26,367 nt of DNA from Candidatus Bathyarchaeia archaeon (GCA_049512075.1 JBEKXL010000029.1:1-26367); one strand, 5' to 3'; counted from the first letter of the stretch, positions 301-26,003 are shown. Notes: a model not told the origin generated them from the letters alone. Numbers and translations are program-made.

Positions 301-746
301 CACCTTGCCTGAAGTTTTCGCTACAAGAATGTAGTGAATTTTGGCTTCAAAACGCCTTTGTTTATTAATACGCGTTTCGCCGTTAAAAAAATTTGCTGCT
401 CGTTGATGTTGTTTTCTGAGGTGAGAAGTGAATGGTGGAGTCAGGAGGTCCTTGTTGGTTGTGTTGGGGATAGAATTTTAATCCCAAACCCAAACCTCTC
501 TCACACTACTCCCTTCTCCTCTACTCTCTCCCTCCCCCACTCTCTATTATCTCTAACACATACATACAATTACAATTACAGACACACAGCCGTGAGAGTG
601 TGAAGGAAGCGGGCGCCTCCCCACCTAGGATATCAAGCAGGGCACTTCAAGACTTGATGAAGAAAGAAGTTCTGAACCAGAAGAAGATAGGCACGACATT
701 TCAACCATGATTGTTCGATTGTTTCCGTTAACGCTGAGCGCGCGCG

Positions 747-775
747 TGGCCCGGGAGAGATTCGAACTCTCGTCA
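747..775 (-). other. tRNA 3'-end remnant (possibly tRNA-Gln), candidate att site
   Basis: Minus strand reads TGAC-GAGAG-TTCGAAT-CTCTC-CCGGGCC-A: a perfect T-arm, acceptor 3' strand and discriminator. No matching 5' half (GGCCCGG) upstream. Confidence 0.75.
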
Positions 776-811
776 AGCATATCCTAAGCATATTTTTACC
801 GGTAAACTTAA

Positions 812-835
812 GTGGGGGTCCCACTCCCCGCACCA
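812..835 (+). other. tRNA-Leu-like 3'-end remnant, candidate att site
   Basis: GTGGG-ggt-CCCAC-TCCCCGC-ACCA: T-stem with a degenerate loop, an acceptor strand complementary to GCGGGGA, then ACCA and a pyrimidine tract. Confidence 0.55.
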
Positions 836-1165
836 TTCTCTTTCCGCCCTTTTTAGACACTCTTTTAGCGCGCGCTCCTGAAAGACCTTCTTTACAATTT
901 CGCCTACCATACTTCTTGCAATATTGTCCTAATCTTTTCTTCTATTGAGGCAAAAATCCTCTCACTCTTCAGACGAGAAACTAAATTGAAAATGAATCTC
1001 TCGATTTCAGGCTCCATCTGCAAAGATTGACACCTCGACTTTAGCGCACCCACACGCTTAATGTACGAAAACCGCGAAACATTGCAGAAAATCAAGAAAG
1101 AAGCGCGCGCGATGGTCAACTGCAAGGATTGCTTGACCACATATAAACCATTTTGGGTGAGACGA

Positions 1166-1492
1166 TTATGTTTTTTTGCTTATCACCACAATGAGTCCAA
1201 GTATTCCTCCGAGAGCAACTAGCAGTCCACCAAGTCCACCGCCGATGATTCCAACGATTATGAGTACGATTGCCCAAACGAGAGTAGCTGCGCTTTTTGA
1301 ACCGATTATTGCTATGACACCGCAAATAACGGCAACGATGCTGCCATAGGCGAAGCCCCAATCCCAATGCAAAACCGGCCCAAAGTTTTGACCAGAATAC
1401 CCAGCGAGTGATAGTAATCCTAAGATTACCAGGAGTATTCCGCCTAGAAGAGCTAAGATGTAAGCTATTCGAGACACTGAAATTTCTGACAT
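1166..1492 (-). CDS. Small Gly-rich multi-pass membrane protein
   Basis: 108 aa with 3-4 hydrophobic Gly-rich helices. TATA-like CTTAAA about 35 nt upstream on the minus strand. Confidence 0.75.
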   Translation of the reverse strand: MSEISVSRIAYILALLGGILLVILGLLSLAGYSGQNFGPVLHWDWGFAYGSIVAVICGVIAIIGSKSAATLVWAIVLIIVGIIGGGLGGLLVALGGILGLIVVISKKT

Positions 1493-1559
1493 TCACATTC
1501 CACGTCATAACTTATAGCTCTAGGCGTTTAAGAAGTTTACTCTGGTTTGGGTGAAAGAG

Positions 1560-1640
1560 ATGCCAGAGAAAAGAAGAAGAAACATTTGCCCAATCTGTGG
1601 TAGCAAAATGGAATACCACCATCAAGAATGTGTCGCATAG
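1560..1640 (+). CDS. Tiny zinc-ribbon-like ORF, possibly truncated
   Basis: MPEKRRRNICPICGSKMEYHHQECVA*, with GGTGA RBS and TTTAAG upstream. Ends just before a CGCGCG tract. Confidence 0.45.
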   Translation: MPEKRRRNICPICGSKMEYHHQECVA

Positions 1641-23192: not shown

Positions 23193-24209
23193 ATGTCGGA
23201 AATTCGAGAAGTAGAGTTGACAAAGATACAGAATAGCAAATTAAATCCGCGGTTAGATATTGACCCTCAGGAACTAAGTGAACTCGCCCAGAGTATTCGT
23301 GAGGTGGGCATGCTCCAACCAATTATATTGCGACCAATAGGAACAGGAAAGTTTGAAGTTGTCGTTGGACAACGCCGTTTTTTCGCAGCAGGAAAACTTG
23401 GGCTCAAGAGAGTACCGGCAATTGTCCGCGAGTACTCTGATGAAGAAGTCGTCGAATTAAACCTCATAGAGAACATCCAGAGGACTGAATTAAGCGCTGT
23501 GGAGAAAGGTCGTTCTTGTAAAGAACTAATGGAGAAATATCATCATGTATATCCAAACGTAAAAGCGATTGCGTCCAAGATTGGAGTTTCAGGCACCACC
23601 GTAAGAAGCTGGCTTCAATTGGTAGAGGCGCCTTTAGAAATTCAAAGGATGGTTGCACCATCACCAAAAATAGGCGTTCCAAGAGAAGCTGGAAAAATAG
23701 ACTGGGATACTGCTGTATCTATCACTCGTCGTATCGAAAGCAAAGAGAGACAAATTGAGGTTGCAAAAGAGATAGCCAGTAAACCCATCTATCGAAGAGA
23801 AGCAAGGGAGGTTATCTCCCGGGCGGTCAAAGAACCAGAGAAGTCTGTAGGGACATTGATTAAAGAGGTCATTGAAACTCCTTATGAGCTTCCATTTAGG
23901 CTTAGTCACATGGATCCTATTCTAAAAGGCGTCAAAACTCAAACTAGTCGAAAAGGCATTCCAGACCCGAAAGTCAGAGTTGGCGCCAGAATTCATGCAG
24001 CCGTCTGGGAACCTCATTTTGCTGATCTAGTAATTACCTCAATTGAACGAAAGCGTTTGGGCGATTTCACAGATGAAGACGCCCGAAGAGAAGGGGGTTA
24101 CACGTTGGAACAATTTAGAGAAGTGTGGAAGAACATTCATGGCGAATGGGATGAAAACGAATTCGTCTACACAATCCAATTCACAAAAGGAAAAGGAGGT
24201 GTAAACTGA
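23193..24209 (+). CDS. ParB/Srx-domain + HTH + C-terminal ASCH domain fusion
   Basis: NPR, ELAQSIREVGMLQPIILR, VVGQRR, ENIQRTELS, HTH IASKIGVSGTTV, then ILKGVKTQTSR...FTDEDARREGGYTLEQF...VYTIQF (ASCH GxKTxTxR and DAxxEG signatures). Confidence 0.88.
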   Translation: MSEIREVELTKIQNSKLNPRLDIDPQELSELAQSIREVGMLQPIILRPIGTGKFEVVVGQRRFFAAGKLGLKRVPAIVREYSDEEVVELNLIENIQRTELSAVEKGRSCKELMEKYHHVYPNVKAIASKIGVSGTTVRSWLQLVEAPLEIQRMVAPSPKIGVPREAGKIDWDTAVSITRRIESKERQIEVAKEIASKPIYRREAREVISRAVKEPEKSVGTLIKEVIETPYELPFRLSHMDPILKGVKTQTSRKGIPDPKVRVGARIHAAVWEPHFADLVITSIERKRLGDFTDEDARREGGYTLEQFREVWKNIHGEWDENEFVYTIQFTKGKGGVN

Positions 24210-24952
24210 AAACGTCTCGGGAAGAAGAAGAAAAAGTTCTTGTCTTGGTCAAAGCCACGCCAAACTGGAGCGTCCATCTGAAGCGATACACAGTCTGTAC
24301 CGCTGGGATAAGTGAAAACAATGAATGGCGAAGATTGTACCCAATGGAGTGGAGCACCATCAGGGACAAAGGTATCAAAGTTTGGGACAAAATCAAGGTT
24401 TCAACTTCCAAGCCTGAGAAGGACCCTAGACCTGAAAGTCGAAAGATAGACAACGAAAGCGTAGAGAATTGTGGGTGCGCCATCAAGGATAGGGAGGAAA
24501 GGCGAGAATTCCTCAATGCGTATACAGACACGTTGATTCCAGATGCCACTAAAACGAAGAAAACGCTCTCTATCATTAAGCCAATTCTATTTGGCTTCTC
24601 AGTAGAGAAGGAGAATGAGCGCGGTAAGCAAGTCACTATCGATGGAGATATTTTTAAGGTGCAACCTTACGGTGACATTTCGTTGACTTACCAGTTCAAA
24701 TGTGGAGAAAAAGGATGCGCTATATGCTCTCGAGTTCACAAATTTCATCACATGGAGTGTTTTGATTTTGGGGCAAATGAACTATACAGGAAATATCAAG
24801 ATGAAAAAGTAGCTAAGGAAAAAGTGCGTGAAGGCTGTTACACGAGAATGAAAGCAGACAACGATTGTTGGTTTGCCATGGGAACGCATAGCCAATATCC
24901 TTTCCTGAAATGGATGGTTGTTGGATTACTCTGGATGAAAAAAGCAAGCTAG
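24206..24952 (+). CDS. Conserved hypothetical protein, dual-OB-like N-terminus with Cys/His cluster
   Basis: VLVLVKATP...TVCTAGI....EWRRLYP...D.RPES.K pattern and CxxxxCxxC..H..C. Probable CTG start overlapping the upstream TGA, behind GGAGGTG. Confidence 0.75.
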   Translation: MKTSREEEEKVLVLVKATPNWSVHLKRYTVCTAGISENNEWRRLYPMEWSTIRDKGIKVWDKIKVSTSKPEKDPRPESRKIDNESVENCGCAIKDREERREFLNAYTDTLIPDATKTKKTLSIIKPILFGFSVEKENERGKQVTIDGDIFKVQPYGDISLTYQFKCGEKGCAICSRVHKFHHMECFDFGANELYRKYQDEKVAKEKVREGCYTRMKADNDCWFAMGTHSQYPFLKWMVVGLLWMKKAS

Positions 24953-25089
24953 ATCTAGGTTTCAATCGATCGATCCAAAATCGCACGAGAGCTTCACTTT
25001 AACTCCACTCTCTGCACTGTCGATGGATGTCGGTAGATCGCAGTGCTTTTAACGGTTCCAGTCAAAACCAAAAGAGGGAGAGAGTGTTT

Positions 25090-25326
25090 ATGCAGCAGAA
25101 GAGGTCAGCTGTCTTACGAGAGGTCGACGAGAAGTGGCTTGATGATGATATGTTTGTTGACTTAACCATTTACGATGTTCCAGCAGGCCTGCTCAGAGAG
25201 TTTGGCGAGAAGGTAGTTAATTCCAGCTACCCAAGCGGAGTCAACGAAGCAATCAAGGACCTACTTCGAAAAGCCATAATGGAGCATGAGTCAAAACGCA
25301 TTGAGGCACATCTTCTGACCACGTAG
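25090..25326 (+). CDS. Small RHH-like hypothetical protein
   Basis: VDLTIYDVPAGLLREF...YPSGVNEAIKDLLRKAI shows a strand-helix-helix pattern. Confidence 0.6.
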   Translation: MQQKRSAVLREVDEKWLDDDMFVDLTIYDVPAGLLREFGEKVVNSSYPSGVNEAIKDLLRKAIMEHESKRIEAHLLTT

Positions 25327-25353
25327 AACAAGATGTGGGGGCTTCTGCGCAAA

Positions 25354-25618
25354 TTGGTTCGAATCCAGCACAGAGTCTCAAAGAAACGCTACCTGAACAG
25401 CAAGCGCACCTACGAGTACGGGCGCATGTCTCTAGATATACCCAAGAAGTTCCGATATACCCAAGAAGTTCCATGAGGTCCTTGAGCCATTTCTGGAGAA
25501 GGAACTCAACCTTGACGTTAAGCTGGAAAACAATATTGCGATCATCTCTTTGTCCCCCGTGAAAACGTTTCGGCATGCCGAAAACACCCCCGACAAAACA
25601 CGCTCAGAAACCTGTTAG
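25354..25618 (+). pseudogene. AbrB/SpoVT-like small protein frameshifted by a 19-bp tandem duplication
   Basis: Removing one copy of GATATACCCAAGAAGTTCC restores MVRIQHRVSKKRY...RMSLDIPKKFHEVLEPFLEKELNLDVKLENN...ETC*. Confidence 0.7.
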
Positions 25619-25811
25619 GGCATGCTCTGAAAACATCAAGCCCCAGATTTTGTTTAAATATCTGCCTGCCGAAACATTTTTCCACTAAGCAATTTCTGCC
25701 TGCAGAAACGTTTTCCCCCAGACCTGTTGACACAAAAATGTGTAAATTAACGTGAATAAGCCCTTCCCCACATAGTTCTGGTTTTACTTACTTTGCTGGT
25801 CAGCGAATGAA

Positions 25812-26003
25812 TTGCCCAAACCCAAAGACACAAGGCTCTCAGTGTTCAAGGGTCGAGAAGCCAGACTCAACCATGCCATATTCCAAACCCTCGCCAAAAA
25901 TGACTCTCTGACGATCTACGAGGCACACAAACAAATCAAGAGTTTGAGAGGCTTTAGACACACAAAGTACACCAACGTCAGCCACAGAGTAAGAAGTGCG
26001 CGC
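25812..26003 (+). pseudogene. Winged-HTH-like protein truncated at GCGCGC
   Basis: LSVFKGREARLNHAIFQTLAKNDSLTIYEAHKQI...YTNVSHRVR breaks at 25998. The rest of the ORF is antisense of another gene fragment. Confidence 0.6.

What the first reader, a model, noticed from the sequence alone, without database searches (positions are those of the whole stretch)
738..26003. 22 (GC)n tracts mark the joints of the mosaic: candidate GCGC-directed shuffling system
Seen: alternating GC tracts of 6-10 nt start at 738, 868, 1103, 1643, 1712, 1958, 5621, 5768, 6356, 6603, 8279, 8335, 9743, 12558, 15805, 16034, 16287, 18006, 18358, 23045, 23126 and 25998. I found none in the long intact genes, even the GC-rich 3101-5566 gene. 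Flanks are biased toward (T/A)A-GCGCGC(GC)n-T(A/T). The tracts bracket whole modules (aRF1 paralogue, mgtA, glgP-ldh). Inference: they are target sites or footprints of a transposase or recombinase, or a highly iterated palindrome analogous to cyanobacterial HIP1. Tract lengths from 6 to 10 nt would fit repeated CG duplication. I do not know a description of this in archaea.
Basis: partly seen in the sequence, partly recalled or inferred. Interest (0 to 1): 0.9.

Follow-up and report, generated by a model that had tools for sequence, protein, structure and literature searches.

The report
GC-tract scars mark mobile DNA borders
Short GCGCGC runs scattered between the genes of this uncultured archaeon are most likely leftover ends of a jumping-gene family, and they flag the places where gene blocks were inserted, lost or swapped between relatives.

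Summary
All 22 tracts exist: 36 overlapping GCGCGC against 3.15 expected.

- **Genome-wide.** The genome has 1227 tracts. They sit at chance level in coding DNA and are 13.5-fold enriched between genes. Only 6 of 1227 exceed 10 nt.
- **Genus-limited.** AGCGCGCGCT occurs 29-115 times in all 5 genomes of the genus and 0-9 times in 26 relatives.
- **Joints.** 58 of 103 large indels or replacements against the closest relative have a tract at a junction. So do 14 of 26 borders of recently exchanged modules, against 9 of 296 core borders. A near-identical strain also breaks inside two window tracts.
- **Source.** GCGCGC is the terminus of an IS5/IS1182-like insertion sequence and its MITEs. In one clean case a MITE in one genome corresponds to (GC)5 in the other. 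Where an outgroup resolves polarity cleanly, the tract state is derived in 4 of 4 cases.

Best reading (0.55): the tracts are remnants of these transposon ends. Joining two 6-nt termini with a 2-nt overlap gives at most 10 nt. The remnants mark the borders of mobile and accessory DNA. HIP1-like, restriction-type and REP/RAYT readings found no support. An active tract-to-tract cassette system is not excluded.

The parts
738..746 (.). (GC)n tract, 9 nt, abutting a repeated tRNA-like fragment (746-833)
   Evidence: repeat hits start at 746; bridged by an X1 contig
868..875 (.). (GC)4 tract
   Evidence: bridged by an X1 contig
1103..1111 (.). (GC)n tract, 9 nt
1643..1648 (.). CGCGCG tract (CG phase)
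   Evidence: read
1712..1719 (.). CGCGCGCG tract
1958..1966 (.). (GC)n tract, 9 nt; a repeat family (1964-2018) starts inside it
5621..5626 (.). (GC)3 tract
5768..5775 (.). (GC)4 tract; strain-level breakpoint lies inside it
   Evidence: An X5 contig fits the window only from 5770 on. X5 depth over 2002-5336 is at most 1.86, against 36-58 in X1
6356..6365 (.). (GC)5 tract, left border of a repeat element
6366..6602 (.). Dispersed repeat element (about 240 bp, core 6452-6603) flanked by tracts; second partial copy at 17826-17958
   Evidence: 46 BLAST rows in G000, self-hit included; dozens in G002 and G001
6603..6610 (.). (GC)4 tract, right border of the repeat element
8279..8288 (.). (GC)5 tract at the left border of the aRF1 module
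   Evidence: Homology to G031 starts at 8291
8289..8340 (-). Remnant of one end of the IS5/IS1182-like IS, including its terminus GCGCGC at 8335-8340
   Evidence: Matches the ends of the C77 and C15 IS copies. G031 keeps 94 nt of the same end
8291..9746 (+). Exchanged module: IS-end remnant plus aRF1 paralogue (ORF 8436-9728)
   Evidence: 93% identical to G031, whose core is about 65-76% identical; Pfam eRF1_1/2/3
9743..9751 (.). (GC)n tract, 9 nt; the breakpoint lies inside it
   Evidence: G031 shares ...GAATCGCG and then diverges. The G003 match ends at 9745
9789..12535 (+). Module with the P-type ATPase, lying between two tracts
   Evidence: 95% identical to G001, alone in that genome's context; Pfam
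12558..12563 (.). (GC)3 tract
14725..15804 (+). Exchanged module with ldh/mdh
   Evidence: 92.6% identical to G031. In G031 a GCGCGCGC sits directly to its left where the window has GT
15805..16039 (.). 235-bp MITE with terminal inverted repeats that start with GCGCGC (tracts 15805-15810 and 16034-16039)
   Evidence: The arms match each other at 88% over 51 nt, and the element has 123 BLAST rows in G000, self-hits included; TIR family. An X5 contig's fit ends at 15810
16287..16295 (.). (GC)n tract, 9 nt, preceded by a copy of the 6366-6385 repeat start
18006..18011 (.). (GC)3 tract at the end of the second repeat copy
18358..18365 (.). (GC)4 tract
23045..23053 (.). (GC)n tract, 9 nt, between defence-island genes
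23126..23134 (.). (GC)n tract, 9 nt
25998..26003 (.). (GC)3 tract

Best explanation
The tracts derive from the outermost six bases (GCGCGC) of an IS5/IS1182-like insertion sequence (about 1.1 kb, DUF772 + DDE_Tnp_1 transposase) and its many MITE derivatives. These elements usually sit between TA dinucleotides.

Roughly a tenth of the tracts are ends of elements still present. The rest stand alone and are remnants. Some formed where the two palindromic termini of one element, or of two different elements, were joined after the body was lost. Because GCGCGC is both an inverted and a direct repeat, joining with at least one shared GC unit leaves at most 6+6-2 = 10 nt. Others formed where one terminus was joined to other DNA, which gives tracts with one ragged end and odd length.

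These elements insert between genes. They flank accessory genes and promote deletions, replacements and transfer between lineages. Their remnants therefore sit at the borders of mosaic modules.

Shown: the enrichment, the intergenic location, the restriction to one genus, the GCGCGC termini of the IS and MITEs, the coincidence with structural breakpoints, and the derived state of the tracts.

Inferred: the chemistry of solo formation (microhomology joining, aborted gap repair, or a staggered cut about 5 nt inside each end), and that the modules were moved by this transposase.
For: 1. Real and intergenic. GCGCGC is the most over-represented hexamer, z = 39. Counts are 1392 observed against 103 expected in non-coding DNA and 481 against 421 in coding DNA.
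2. Genus-limited together with the element. AGCGCGCGCT occurs 115/29/87/69/98 times in G000-G004 and 0-9 times in 26 others. The TIR pattern occurs 72/4/27/4/40 times in G000-G004, 1 and 2 times in two other genomes, and 0 times in the remaining 24. The transposase is found in 5 of 5 genus genomes.
3. GCGCGC belongs to the element. The GC run at TIR ends is 6 nt in 61 of 86 ends, and TA lies outside 41 of 86. IS copies in G001-G004 have the same termini. By my reading, about 12 of 19 informative MITE ends lie where the sister genome has no tract.
4. MITE-to-solo correspondence. G002 has (GC)3-MITE-(GC)3 where G000 has (GC)5, with both flanks conserved. At the border of the TrmO module, G031 has a MITE and G000 has (GC)4.
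5. Sharp length ceiling. Counts are 105 ten-mers, then 3, 2 and 1 longer tracts. The same ceiling appears in G002, G004 and the complete chromosome G031. There is no excess of GCGC 4-mers.
6. Joints. 58 of 103 events and 94 of 412 junction ends carry a tract, against 4.7% of non-coding positions. 14 of 26 borders of segments at least 85% identical carry one, against 9 of 296 core borders.
7. Polarity. In events 29, 33, 73 and 79 the outgroup G004 shares the tract-free state. In events 5, 6, 40 and 62 G004 has no tract at the junction.
8. The window holds an IS-end remnant at 8289-8340 next to the aRF1 module.
Against: - Solo tracts outnumber extant TIR ends by about 10 to 1. G003 has only 4 TIR matches but 69 AGCGCGCGCT.
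- Odd-length tracts (195 seven-mers, 186 nine-mers) do not follow from a simple join of two termini. Nine-mers have one end with a random flank.
- TA is less frequent beside solo tracts (0.26-0.31 per end) than beside MITE ends (41 of 86).
- Only one clean occupied-versus-solo pair with both flanks conserved was found. The systematic both-flank tests resolved 0.
- Deletions inside genes that are filled by a tract need more than one step under this model (events 33 and 61).
- From my own knowledge, not a call: Tn5/Tn10-type DDE transposases release blunt flanks, so a footprint would have to come from host repair.
Confidence: 0.55

Rival explanations
1. The tracts are themselves active recombination sites. 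The IS5-like transposase, or an unidentified recombinase, joins any two (GC)n tracts. Any gene between two tracts then behaves as a mobile cassette that can be excised, inserted at another tract and passed between species.
For: - Filled sites read tract-segment-tract where the sister genome has one tract (c2:81735/C33 and c2:114094/C26).
- G031 L116:9000-19000 is an array of single-gene modules separated by tracts. Their G000 counterparts lie on four different contigs (C28, C10, C57, C23) at 86-95% identity, while the core is about 72% identical.
- Breakpoints lie inside tracts.
- Tract numbers do not follow extant MITE numbers.
- Only 67 of 860 inter-tract segments are repeats.
Against: - No conserved sequence beyond about 1-2 nt on either side of the tracts, so there is no att- or attC-like site for a protein to read.
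- Where polarised, tracts arrive with the rearrangement rather than pre-existing. Event 62 is the exception, showing a later deletion next to an older tract.
- No candidate recombinase was identified.
- All the patterns can also arise from IS or MITE pairs that later decay.
Confidence: 0.2
2. The tracts arise by some other process, and the IS or MITE family merely prefers to insert into them. IS1397 inserting into REP palindromes would be the parallel (recalled, not from a call).
For: - One MITE lies where the sister genome has (GC)5.
- At about 7 of 19 informative MITE ends, the sister genome has a tract at the same position followed by other DNA (my reading).
Against: - About 12 of 19 MITE ends lie at sites that carry no tract in the sister genome.
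- The GC run at TIR ends is fixed at 6 nt in 61 of 86 ends, although 6-, 8- and 9-nt tracts are the commonest possible targets.
- An element that carries its own GCGCGC and lands in a tract should give 12-nt runs, and these are almost absent.
- No independent source of tracts was found.
Confidence: 0.08
3. The tracts are scars of a BssHII-like G^CGCGC restriction activity. Re-ligation would give 6 nt, out-of-register annealing 8 nt, and fill-in with blunt joining 10 nt.
For: The arithmetic reproduces the 6/8/10 classes and the ceiling of 10. The window lies in a defence island.
Against: - No C5 cytosine methyltransferase reaches the family cut-off in any of the 5 genus genomes.
- A restriction site should be avoided, not enriched 13-fold.
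- It does not explain the odd lengths or the identity with IS and MITE termini.
- Tracts appear at sites that had no GCGCGC before (events 33 and 61).
Confidence: 0.05
4. The tracts are a selected functional motif, either a HIP1-like iterated palindrome or a regulatory, terminator or Z-DNA element.
For: Strong genome-wide over-representation. Somewhat denser in convergent spacers (1.94 per kb) than in divergent ones (1.2 per kb), and a mild excess close to stop codons.
Against: - No fixed distance to starts or stops.
- At chance level in coding DNA, unlike HIP1 (the HIP1 property is recalled).
- Only 118 of 232 aligned sites are identical between genomes 92-96% alike, and whole tracts come and go.
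- Derived and polymorphic at indel junctions.
- REP/RAYT-type: no Y1 transposase found in G003 or G004, which are rich in tracts.
Confidence: 0.05

Closest known systems
IS5 / IS1182-family insertion sequences and their MITEs
   Same: A transposase of about 290-346 aa with DUF772 + DDE_Tnp_1. An element of about 1.1 kb with terminal inverted repeats. Many 127-500-bp non-autonomous derivatives with the same ends. Short A/T-rich flanks, with TA at 41 of 86 ends.
   Different: Scores stay below NCBIfam's curated cut-offs for every IS family model: IS1182 152 against 270 bits, IS5_4 119 against 140 bits. The termini are a pure (GC)3 palindrome. I found no description of such ends in four literature searches. 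ISfinder was not available.
Transposon excision footprints and 'nearly precise excision' (P element, Tc1/mariner, Tn10; recalled from knowledge, not from a call)
   Same: A few bases of both element termini stay behind at the old site. Short repeats at the base of an inverted-repeat element favour slippage or microhomology joining.
   Different: Here the remnants number about 850 per genome, about ten times the living elements. They are a pure dinucleotide palindrome with a hard 10-nt ceiling, and they also sit at deletion and replacement junctions. Such an abundant footprint class is, to my knowledge, not described in prokaryotes.
HIP1 (GCGATCGC) of cyanobacteria
   Same: A short GC-rich palindrome that is the most over-represented word of the genome, in a restricted clade.
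   Different: The tracts are absent from coding DNA beyond chance. Their length varies from 6 to 10 nt. No C5 methyltransferase was found in the genus. They are polymorphic between close relatives. The HIP1 properties are recalled.
Integron gene cassettes with attC sites
   Same: Arrays of single accessory genes separated by a short palindromic joint. The same genes occur in other contexts in relatives.
   Different: The joint is 6-10 nt with no conserved flanks, not a 60-120-nt imperfect palindrome (recalled). No integron integrase was looked for or seen beside the arrays.
REP/BIME elements with RAYT transposases, and IS1397-type insertion into REPs
   Same: A dispersed intergenic palindrome associated with mobile elements.
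   Different: No Y1 transposase was found in two tract-rich genus genomes, G003 (93% complete) and G004 (97% complete). The tracts are far shorter than REPs (recalled).

Membership tests
IS5/IS1182-family IS with MITEs | DDE transposase of the DDE_Tnp_1 type | tested here: met
   PF01609 E = 7.8e-30 and PF05598 E = 1.1e-13 on the C77 copy
IS5/IS1182-family IS with MITEs | Reaches a curated family cut-off (NCBIfam IS models) | tested here: not met
   Best scores are IS1182 at 152.5 bits (cut-off 270) and IS5_4 at 118.6 bits (cut-off 140), for 3 copies
IS5/IS1182-family IS with MITEs | Terminal inverted repeats shared by autonomous and miniature copies | tested here: met
   39 TIR pairs: 31 of 127-498 bp, 7 of 0.9-1.7 kb including the ~1.1-kb IS copies, and one chance pairing of 5.4 kb; the same ends in G001-G004
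IS5/IS1182-family IS with MITEs | Short target-site duplication | tested here: inconclusive
   TA lies outside 41 of 86 ends, but no clean empty site with both flanks was recovered
Transposon excision footprint | The remnant consists of bases of the element termini | tested here: met
   The termini are GCGCGC. Solo tracts are (GC)3-5 and at most 10 nt
Transposon excision footprint | Occupied and footprint alleles at one site with both flanks conserved | tested here: inconclusive
   One clean case, G002 c1:16605 against G000 C14:8000; 0 in the systematic tests
Transposon excision footprint | The footprint state is derived relative to an outgroup | tested here: met
   Events 29, 33, 73 and 79 are clean. 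Events 5, 6, 40 and 62 are compatible. Event 65 is ambiguous. 25 of 103 events were resolvable
HIP1-type highly iterated palindrome | Over-represented in coding and non-coding DNA alike | tested here: not met
   Coding 481 observed against 421 expected; non-coding 1392 against 103 (crude ORF map)
HIP1-type highly iterated palindrome | A cognate cytosine methyltransferase | tested here: not met
   PF00145 reaches the cut-off in 0 of 5 genus genomes. N4/N6-type methylases were not tested
Integron cassette array | attC-like extended imperfect palindrome at each joint | tested here: not met
   No base preference beyond positions +1 and +2 in 2442 flanks
Integron cassette array | An IntI-type integrase next to the array | not tested
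   No search was made for it
REP/RAYT system | A Y1 (RAYT) transposase co-occurs with the repeat | tested here: not met
   PF01797 gives no match in G003 or G004, which hold 69 and 98 AGCGCGCGCT

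The most novel reading that the evidence does not exclude
The (GC)3-5 tracts are minimal, protein-read recombination sites of a cassette-shuffling system peculiar to this Bathyarchaeia genus. The IS5-like transposase, or an unknown partner, synapses any two tracts. Single accessory genes (aRF1 paralogue, ATPase, ldh, metal and stress genes, defence genes) are thereby cut out, re-inserted at other tracts and traded between species. 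This would be an archaeal, transposase-based analogue of integrons with a 6-10-bp site.
Probability: 0.2. Interest if true: 0.85.

Novelty: new variant of a known kind. Interest (0 to 1): 0.62.

Why it matters
If the reading is right, a six-base transposon terminus has left about a thousand readable scars per genome in one genus of Bathyarchaeia. These scars would give a built-in map of where accessory DNA entered, left or was exchanged. More than half of the large structural differences from the nearest relative lie at such marks. So do half of the borders of recently transferred genes.

This would offer a cheap marker for genome islands and horizontal transfer in uncultured archaea. It would also be a rare prokaryotic case of abundant excision footprints. 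Finally, it gives a concrete, testable candidate for transposase-driven shuffling of single-gene cassettes.

Tried and rejected
- **RNA reading.** ARAGORN found no tRNA and Rfam found nothing at gathering score. The tRNA-like stretch at 755-808 on the minus strand scores 17.6 bits against a gathering score of 29.
- **Long conserved repeat around the tracts.** Rejected. Only 169 of 2448 flanks cluster, and there is no flank profile beyond +1/+2.
- **Tracts as ends of repeated segments in general.** Only 67 of 860 inter-tract segments have a full-length copy elsewhere.
- **Contig-end or assembly artefact.** 6 of 172 contig ends carry a tract. The tracts are also present in a complete chromosome (G031). 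Contigs of runs X1, X2 and X5 bridge the tracts at 738, 868, 1103, 1643, 1712, 1958, 5621, 5768, 6356, 6603, 8279, 8335, 9743, 12558, 18006 and 18358. X1 and X2 may be the source sample.
- **Both-flank search for clean MITE-versus-empty or MITE-versus-solo sites.** 0 resolved of 39+7, and 0 across the six genome pairings tested from 39, 7 and 4 MITEs.
- **Fixed position relative to genes.** None.
- **C5 methylase** and **Y1/RAYT** do not track the tracts.
- **Literature.** Four searches found nothing on (GC)n tracts in Bathyarchaeia or on IS elements with such ends. The terms were 'GCGCGC, archaea, intergenic'; 'Bathyarchaeota, insertion sequence, MITE'; 'excision footprint, insertion sequence, archaea'; and 'IS5 family, target site duplication, TA dinucleotide, MITE'. 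I saw only the listings and the starts of abstracts, and read no paper. Supplements are closed and were not needed.
- **Counts made by eye.** The 12-versus-7 split of MITE ends comes from my reading's listing.
- **Crude gene map.** The coding/non-coding split rests on a greedy map of ORFs of at least 100 aa, not on a gene caller.
- **Slightly different criteria.** One search used slightly wider junction windows, giving 61 against 58 events with a tract.

Full report
**Observation.** The window holds 36 overlapping GCGCGC matches, where dinucleotide-preserving shuffles give 3.15 (sd 1.69). None of 100 shuffles reaches 36. The matches resolve into 21 alternating tracts of 6-10 nt, plus the CGCGCG at 1643-1648. 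Eighteen of the 21 lie between ORFs of at least 100 aa. Three lie in short ORFs that overlap repeat elements.

**Genome-wide picture.** The window is contig C29 of a 2.73-Mb, 86-contig genome. That genome has 1227 tracts containing GCGCGC:

| Length (nt) | 6 | 7 | 8 | 9 | 10 | 11 | 12 | 13 |
|---|---|---|---|---|---|---|---|---|
| Count | 451 | 195 | 284 | 186 | 105 | 3 | 2 | 1 |

GCGCGC is the most over-represented hexamer under a maximal-order Markov model (z = 39), and it is 3.6-fold above first-order expectation.

I built a crude gene map by greedily choosing ORFs of at least 100 aa, which covers 79% of the genome. On that map the word is at chance in coding DNA (481 against 421) and 13.5-fold enriched in the rest (1392 against 103). 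Tract density is 0.17 per kb in coding DNA and 1.52 per kb outside it.

In non-coding DNA the excess over a first-order model is distributed as follows:

| Run | Observed | Expected |
|---|---|---|
| GCGC | 964 | 1177 |
| (GC)3 | 245 | 63 |
| (GC)4 | 201 | 3.4 |
| 9-mers | 151 | 2.4 |
| (GC)5 | 77 | 0.2 |

There is no excess at GCGC, and the excess ends abruptly after 10 nt. Tracts occur in all kinds of spacer. They are somewhat denser in convergent spacers (1.94 per kb) than in divergent ones (1.2 per kb), and they keep no fixed distance to starts or stops. Only the first flanking base is biased.

**Organism and phyletic range.** The nearest records to the window's ldh gene are titled as Candidatus Bathyarchaeota/Bathyarchaeia MAGs. 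AGCGCGCGCT occurs 115, 29, 87, 69 and 98 times in the five genomes of the genus, and 0-9 times in 26 other genomes of the family and order. The reversed control word occurs 0-6 times. The same length ceiling holds in the relatives:
- G002: 598 tracts in 1.35 Mb, 3 longer than 10 nt.
- G004: 355 tracts in 0.99 Mb, 4 longer than 10 nt.
- The complete chromosome G031: 152 tracts in 400 kb, none longer than 10 nt.

**Link to a transposon.** Clustering of tract flanks showed that 169 of 2448 belong to repeat families. The largest family has the end GCGCGC-[AT][TG]GC.TGT[TC]CC.AAA. These ends pair as terminal inverted repeats of 127-500-bp MITEs. They also bound elements of about 1.1 kb on C15, C32 and C77, whose 290-346-aa ORFs carry DUF772 and DDE_Tnp_1. 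The closest NCBIfam models are IS1182 and IS5, but the scores stay below the curated cut-offs.

At 86 ends the GC run is 6 nt in 61 and 8 nt in 11. TA lies just outside in 41. IS copies in G001-G004 have the same termini. The TIR pattern occurs 72, 4, 27, 4 and 40 times in G000-G004. It occurs once and twice in two other genomes and not at all in the remaining 24. The transposase is found in 5 of 5 genus genomes and, more weakly, in 5 of 26 others.

In the window, 15805-16039 is such a MITE. The stretch 8289-8340 is a 50-nt remnant of an IS end, with its terminus at 8335-8340.

**Tracts at joints, at three depths.**

(a) Species level. G002 is 92-96% identical to G000 over about 1 Mb of alignment. 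Of 103 collinear indel or replacement events of at least 30 bp, 58 have a tract within 12 nt of a junction end. That is 94 of 412 junction ends, against 4.7% of non-coding and 0.55% of coding positions. Only 0-4 of 206 ends score when the junctions are shifted by 60-500 nt. The classes, with examples:
- 50 replacements, 36 with a tract at a junction.
- 53 simple indels, in 14 of which the short allele is little more than a tract.

(b) Between distant lineages. G031 is only about 65-76% identical to G000 over most of 400 kb, yet 14 segments of 0.2-2.7 kb are 85-95% identical. Of their borders, 14 of 26 carry a tract in one genome or the other, against 9 of 296 borders of core alignments. The segments include the window's aRF1 module (8291-9746) and ldh module (14725-15804). 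In G031 a 10-kb stretch is a row of single accessory genes: OsmC and DUF1847, an MBL-fold protein, DUF6125, a cation-efflux protein, TrmO_N, an MFS transporter and an LMW phosphatase. Tracts lie between them, and their G000 counterparts lie on four different contigs (C28, C10, C57, C23).

(c) Strain level. Contigs of run X5 are about 99% identical to the window where they fit. That strain lacks 2002-5336. One contig fits only from 5770 on, inside tract 5768-5775. Another contig's fit ends at 15810, the end of tract 15805-15810. Contigs of X1, X2 and X5 bridge 16 of the 19 tracts in the 20 kb laid, so the joints are not assembly chimeras. X1 and X2 may be the source sample.

**Polarity and anatomy of events.** With 0.99 Mb of the outgroup G004, 25 of the 103 events could be read.
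- In four clean cases (events 29, 33, 73, 79) G004 shares the tract-free allele with one ingroup genome, so the tract-bearing allele is derived.
- In four more (events 5, 6, 40, 62) G004 has no tract at the junction.
- One (event 65) is ambiguous.
- No clean case of the opposite polarity was seen.

The derived alleles take three forms. Some are deletions filled by a tract: event 33, where 776 bp are replaced by AC-CGCGCGCG-TA, and event 61, where 313 bp inside a 3180-nt ORF are replaced by CGCGCGC. Others are replacements by foreign DNA with tracts at one or both ends (events 29, 73, 79). Event 62 shows a tract that arose first and a later 1.1-kb deletion ending exactly beside it.

Within aligned blocks, 118 of 232 tract sites are identical, 95 differ by substitutions only, and 19 differ by indels. 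The indels include whole-tract presence or absence of 8-14 nt.

One site shows a clean correspondence. G002 has (GC)3-MITE-(GC)3 where G000 has (GC)5, with both flanks conserved. At MITE ends where the sister genome lacks the MITE, about 12 show no tract there. About 7 show a solo tract of 6-10 nt at the same position followed by unrelated DNA (my reading).

**Mechanism.** Four points argue together:
- GCGCGC belongs to the element, given its fixed length and insertion at tract-free sites.
- Tracts are derived.
- A MITE corresponds to (GC)5.
- Lengths stop at 10.

Together these fit remnants formed by joining two 6-nt palindromic termini. The terminus is its own reverse complement, so the two ends of an element are also direct repeats. 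Slippage across the MITE hairpin, microhomology end-joining, or premature annealing during gap repair after excision needs at least one shared GC unit. It therefore leaves at most five units. A staggered cut 5 nt inside each end would give the same 6/8/10 classes.

Joining one terminus to other DNA would give the tracts with one canonical end (outward T about 0.65) and one ragged end with a random flank, as seen for 9-mers. This step is inferred. The sequence data do not tell the pathways apart.

Points against the model:
- Solo tracts outnumber extant ends by about ten to one, and G003 has 4 TIR matches against 69 AGCGCGCGCT.
- Odd-length tracts are abundant.
- TA is rarer beside solo tracts than beside MITEs.
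- Only one clean occupied-versus-solo pair was found (resolved none).

**Rivals.**
- An active tract-to-tract recombination system is not excluded. It is favoured by the cassette-like arrays, by breakpoints inside tracts, and by tract-segment-tract alleles facing a single tract. It is weakened by the lack of any conserved flank and by the polarity data.
- Pre-existing target sites are unlikely.
- A restriction-type origin and a HIP1-like motif lack a C5 methylase and do not fit the restriction to non-coding DNA.
- REP/RAYT is contradicted.

**Comparison and novelty.** The element is an IS5/IS1182-like IS with MITEs. It meets the architectural features of the family but not the curated score cut-offs. 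The remnants work like transposon excision footprints (recalled: P element, Tc1/mariner, nearly precise excision of Tn10). I found no description of (GC)n tracts of this kind in four full-text searches, of which I saw only listings and abstract starts. I file it as a new variant of a known kind.

**Limits.**
- The gene map is crude.
- The comparisons use 1.35 Mb of G002, 0.99 Mb of G004 and 0.4 Mb of G031, not whole genomes.
- The five genus genomes are kin, not independent samples.
- Only one outgroup was available for polarity.

Noticed in passing
window 1964-1988 and 2229-2253; G004:C15 about 27.9-37.6 kb: The direct repeat GCGGAAAAGTTATAGCCGAACCGA precedes the DUF4760 gene (2288-2767). G004 contig C15 holds a row of at least six partial or whole copies of this unit, which looks like a tandem array of DUF4760 cassettes.
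   Followed up: no
window 746-833 (tRNA-like 755-808, minus strand): A repeated 88-bp element whose first 30 nt match many loci in G001-G004 at 97%. It scores as a partial tRNA (17.6 bits, below the gathering score of 29). It may be a tRNA-derived fragment left by an integrative element. ARAGORN finds no tRNA.
   Followed up: partly
window 7811-7854, 16367-16405, 17001-17042: A 43-nt repeat in three copies in the window. It has at least 14 further copies in G000 at 84-95% and many more in all four genus relatives. Function unknown.
   Followed up: no
window 18636-24952: A defence island: a type IIG restriction-methylase (PADLOC E = 8e-112), a weak REase-like ORF (21948-23024), a ParB_N + ASCH protein, and a PDC-M19B candidate. 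The first ~1.3 kb of the island (18677-20000), the only part that was laid, is missing from the X5 strain.
   Followed up: partly
window 26270-26367: The last 98 nt match several G002 and G001 contig ends at 96-97%. Those loci lie next to Y1 (IS200/IS605-type) transposase matches (G001:C9:72518-72877, G002:C6:1-303). The contig probably ends in such an IS.
   Followed up: partly
window 485-718: A 234-nt low-complexity stretch. In the X5 strain it is replaced by 54 nt, and in G002 by about 40 nt.
   Followed up: no
G031 L116:11056-12100 against G000 C28 about 5613-5638: The MBL-fold module in G031 is flanked by two copies of a 26-nt sequence (TCACATTGTGAATTCCCATTTGCACC-like) that occurs once at the corresponding joint in G000 C28. 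This is either a long duplication made at insertion or a repeated regulatory box.
   Followed up: no
G000 C30:13482-19122, C18:31915-34891, C12:45909-51931 and others: Several 3-11-kb insertions relative to G002 have 9-36-bp direct repeats at their ends and no tract at the junction. They look like ordinary integrative elements or IS of other families, so not all structural variation here involves the tracts.
   Followed up: partly
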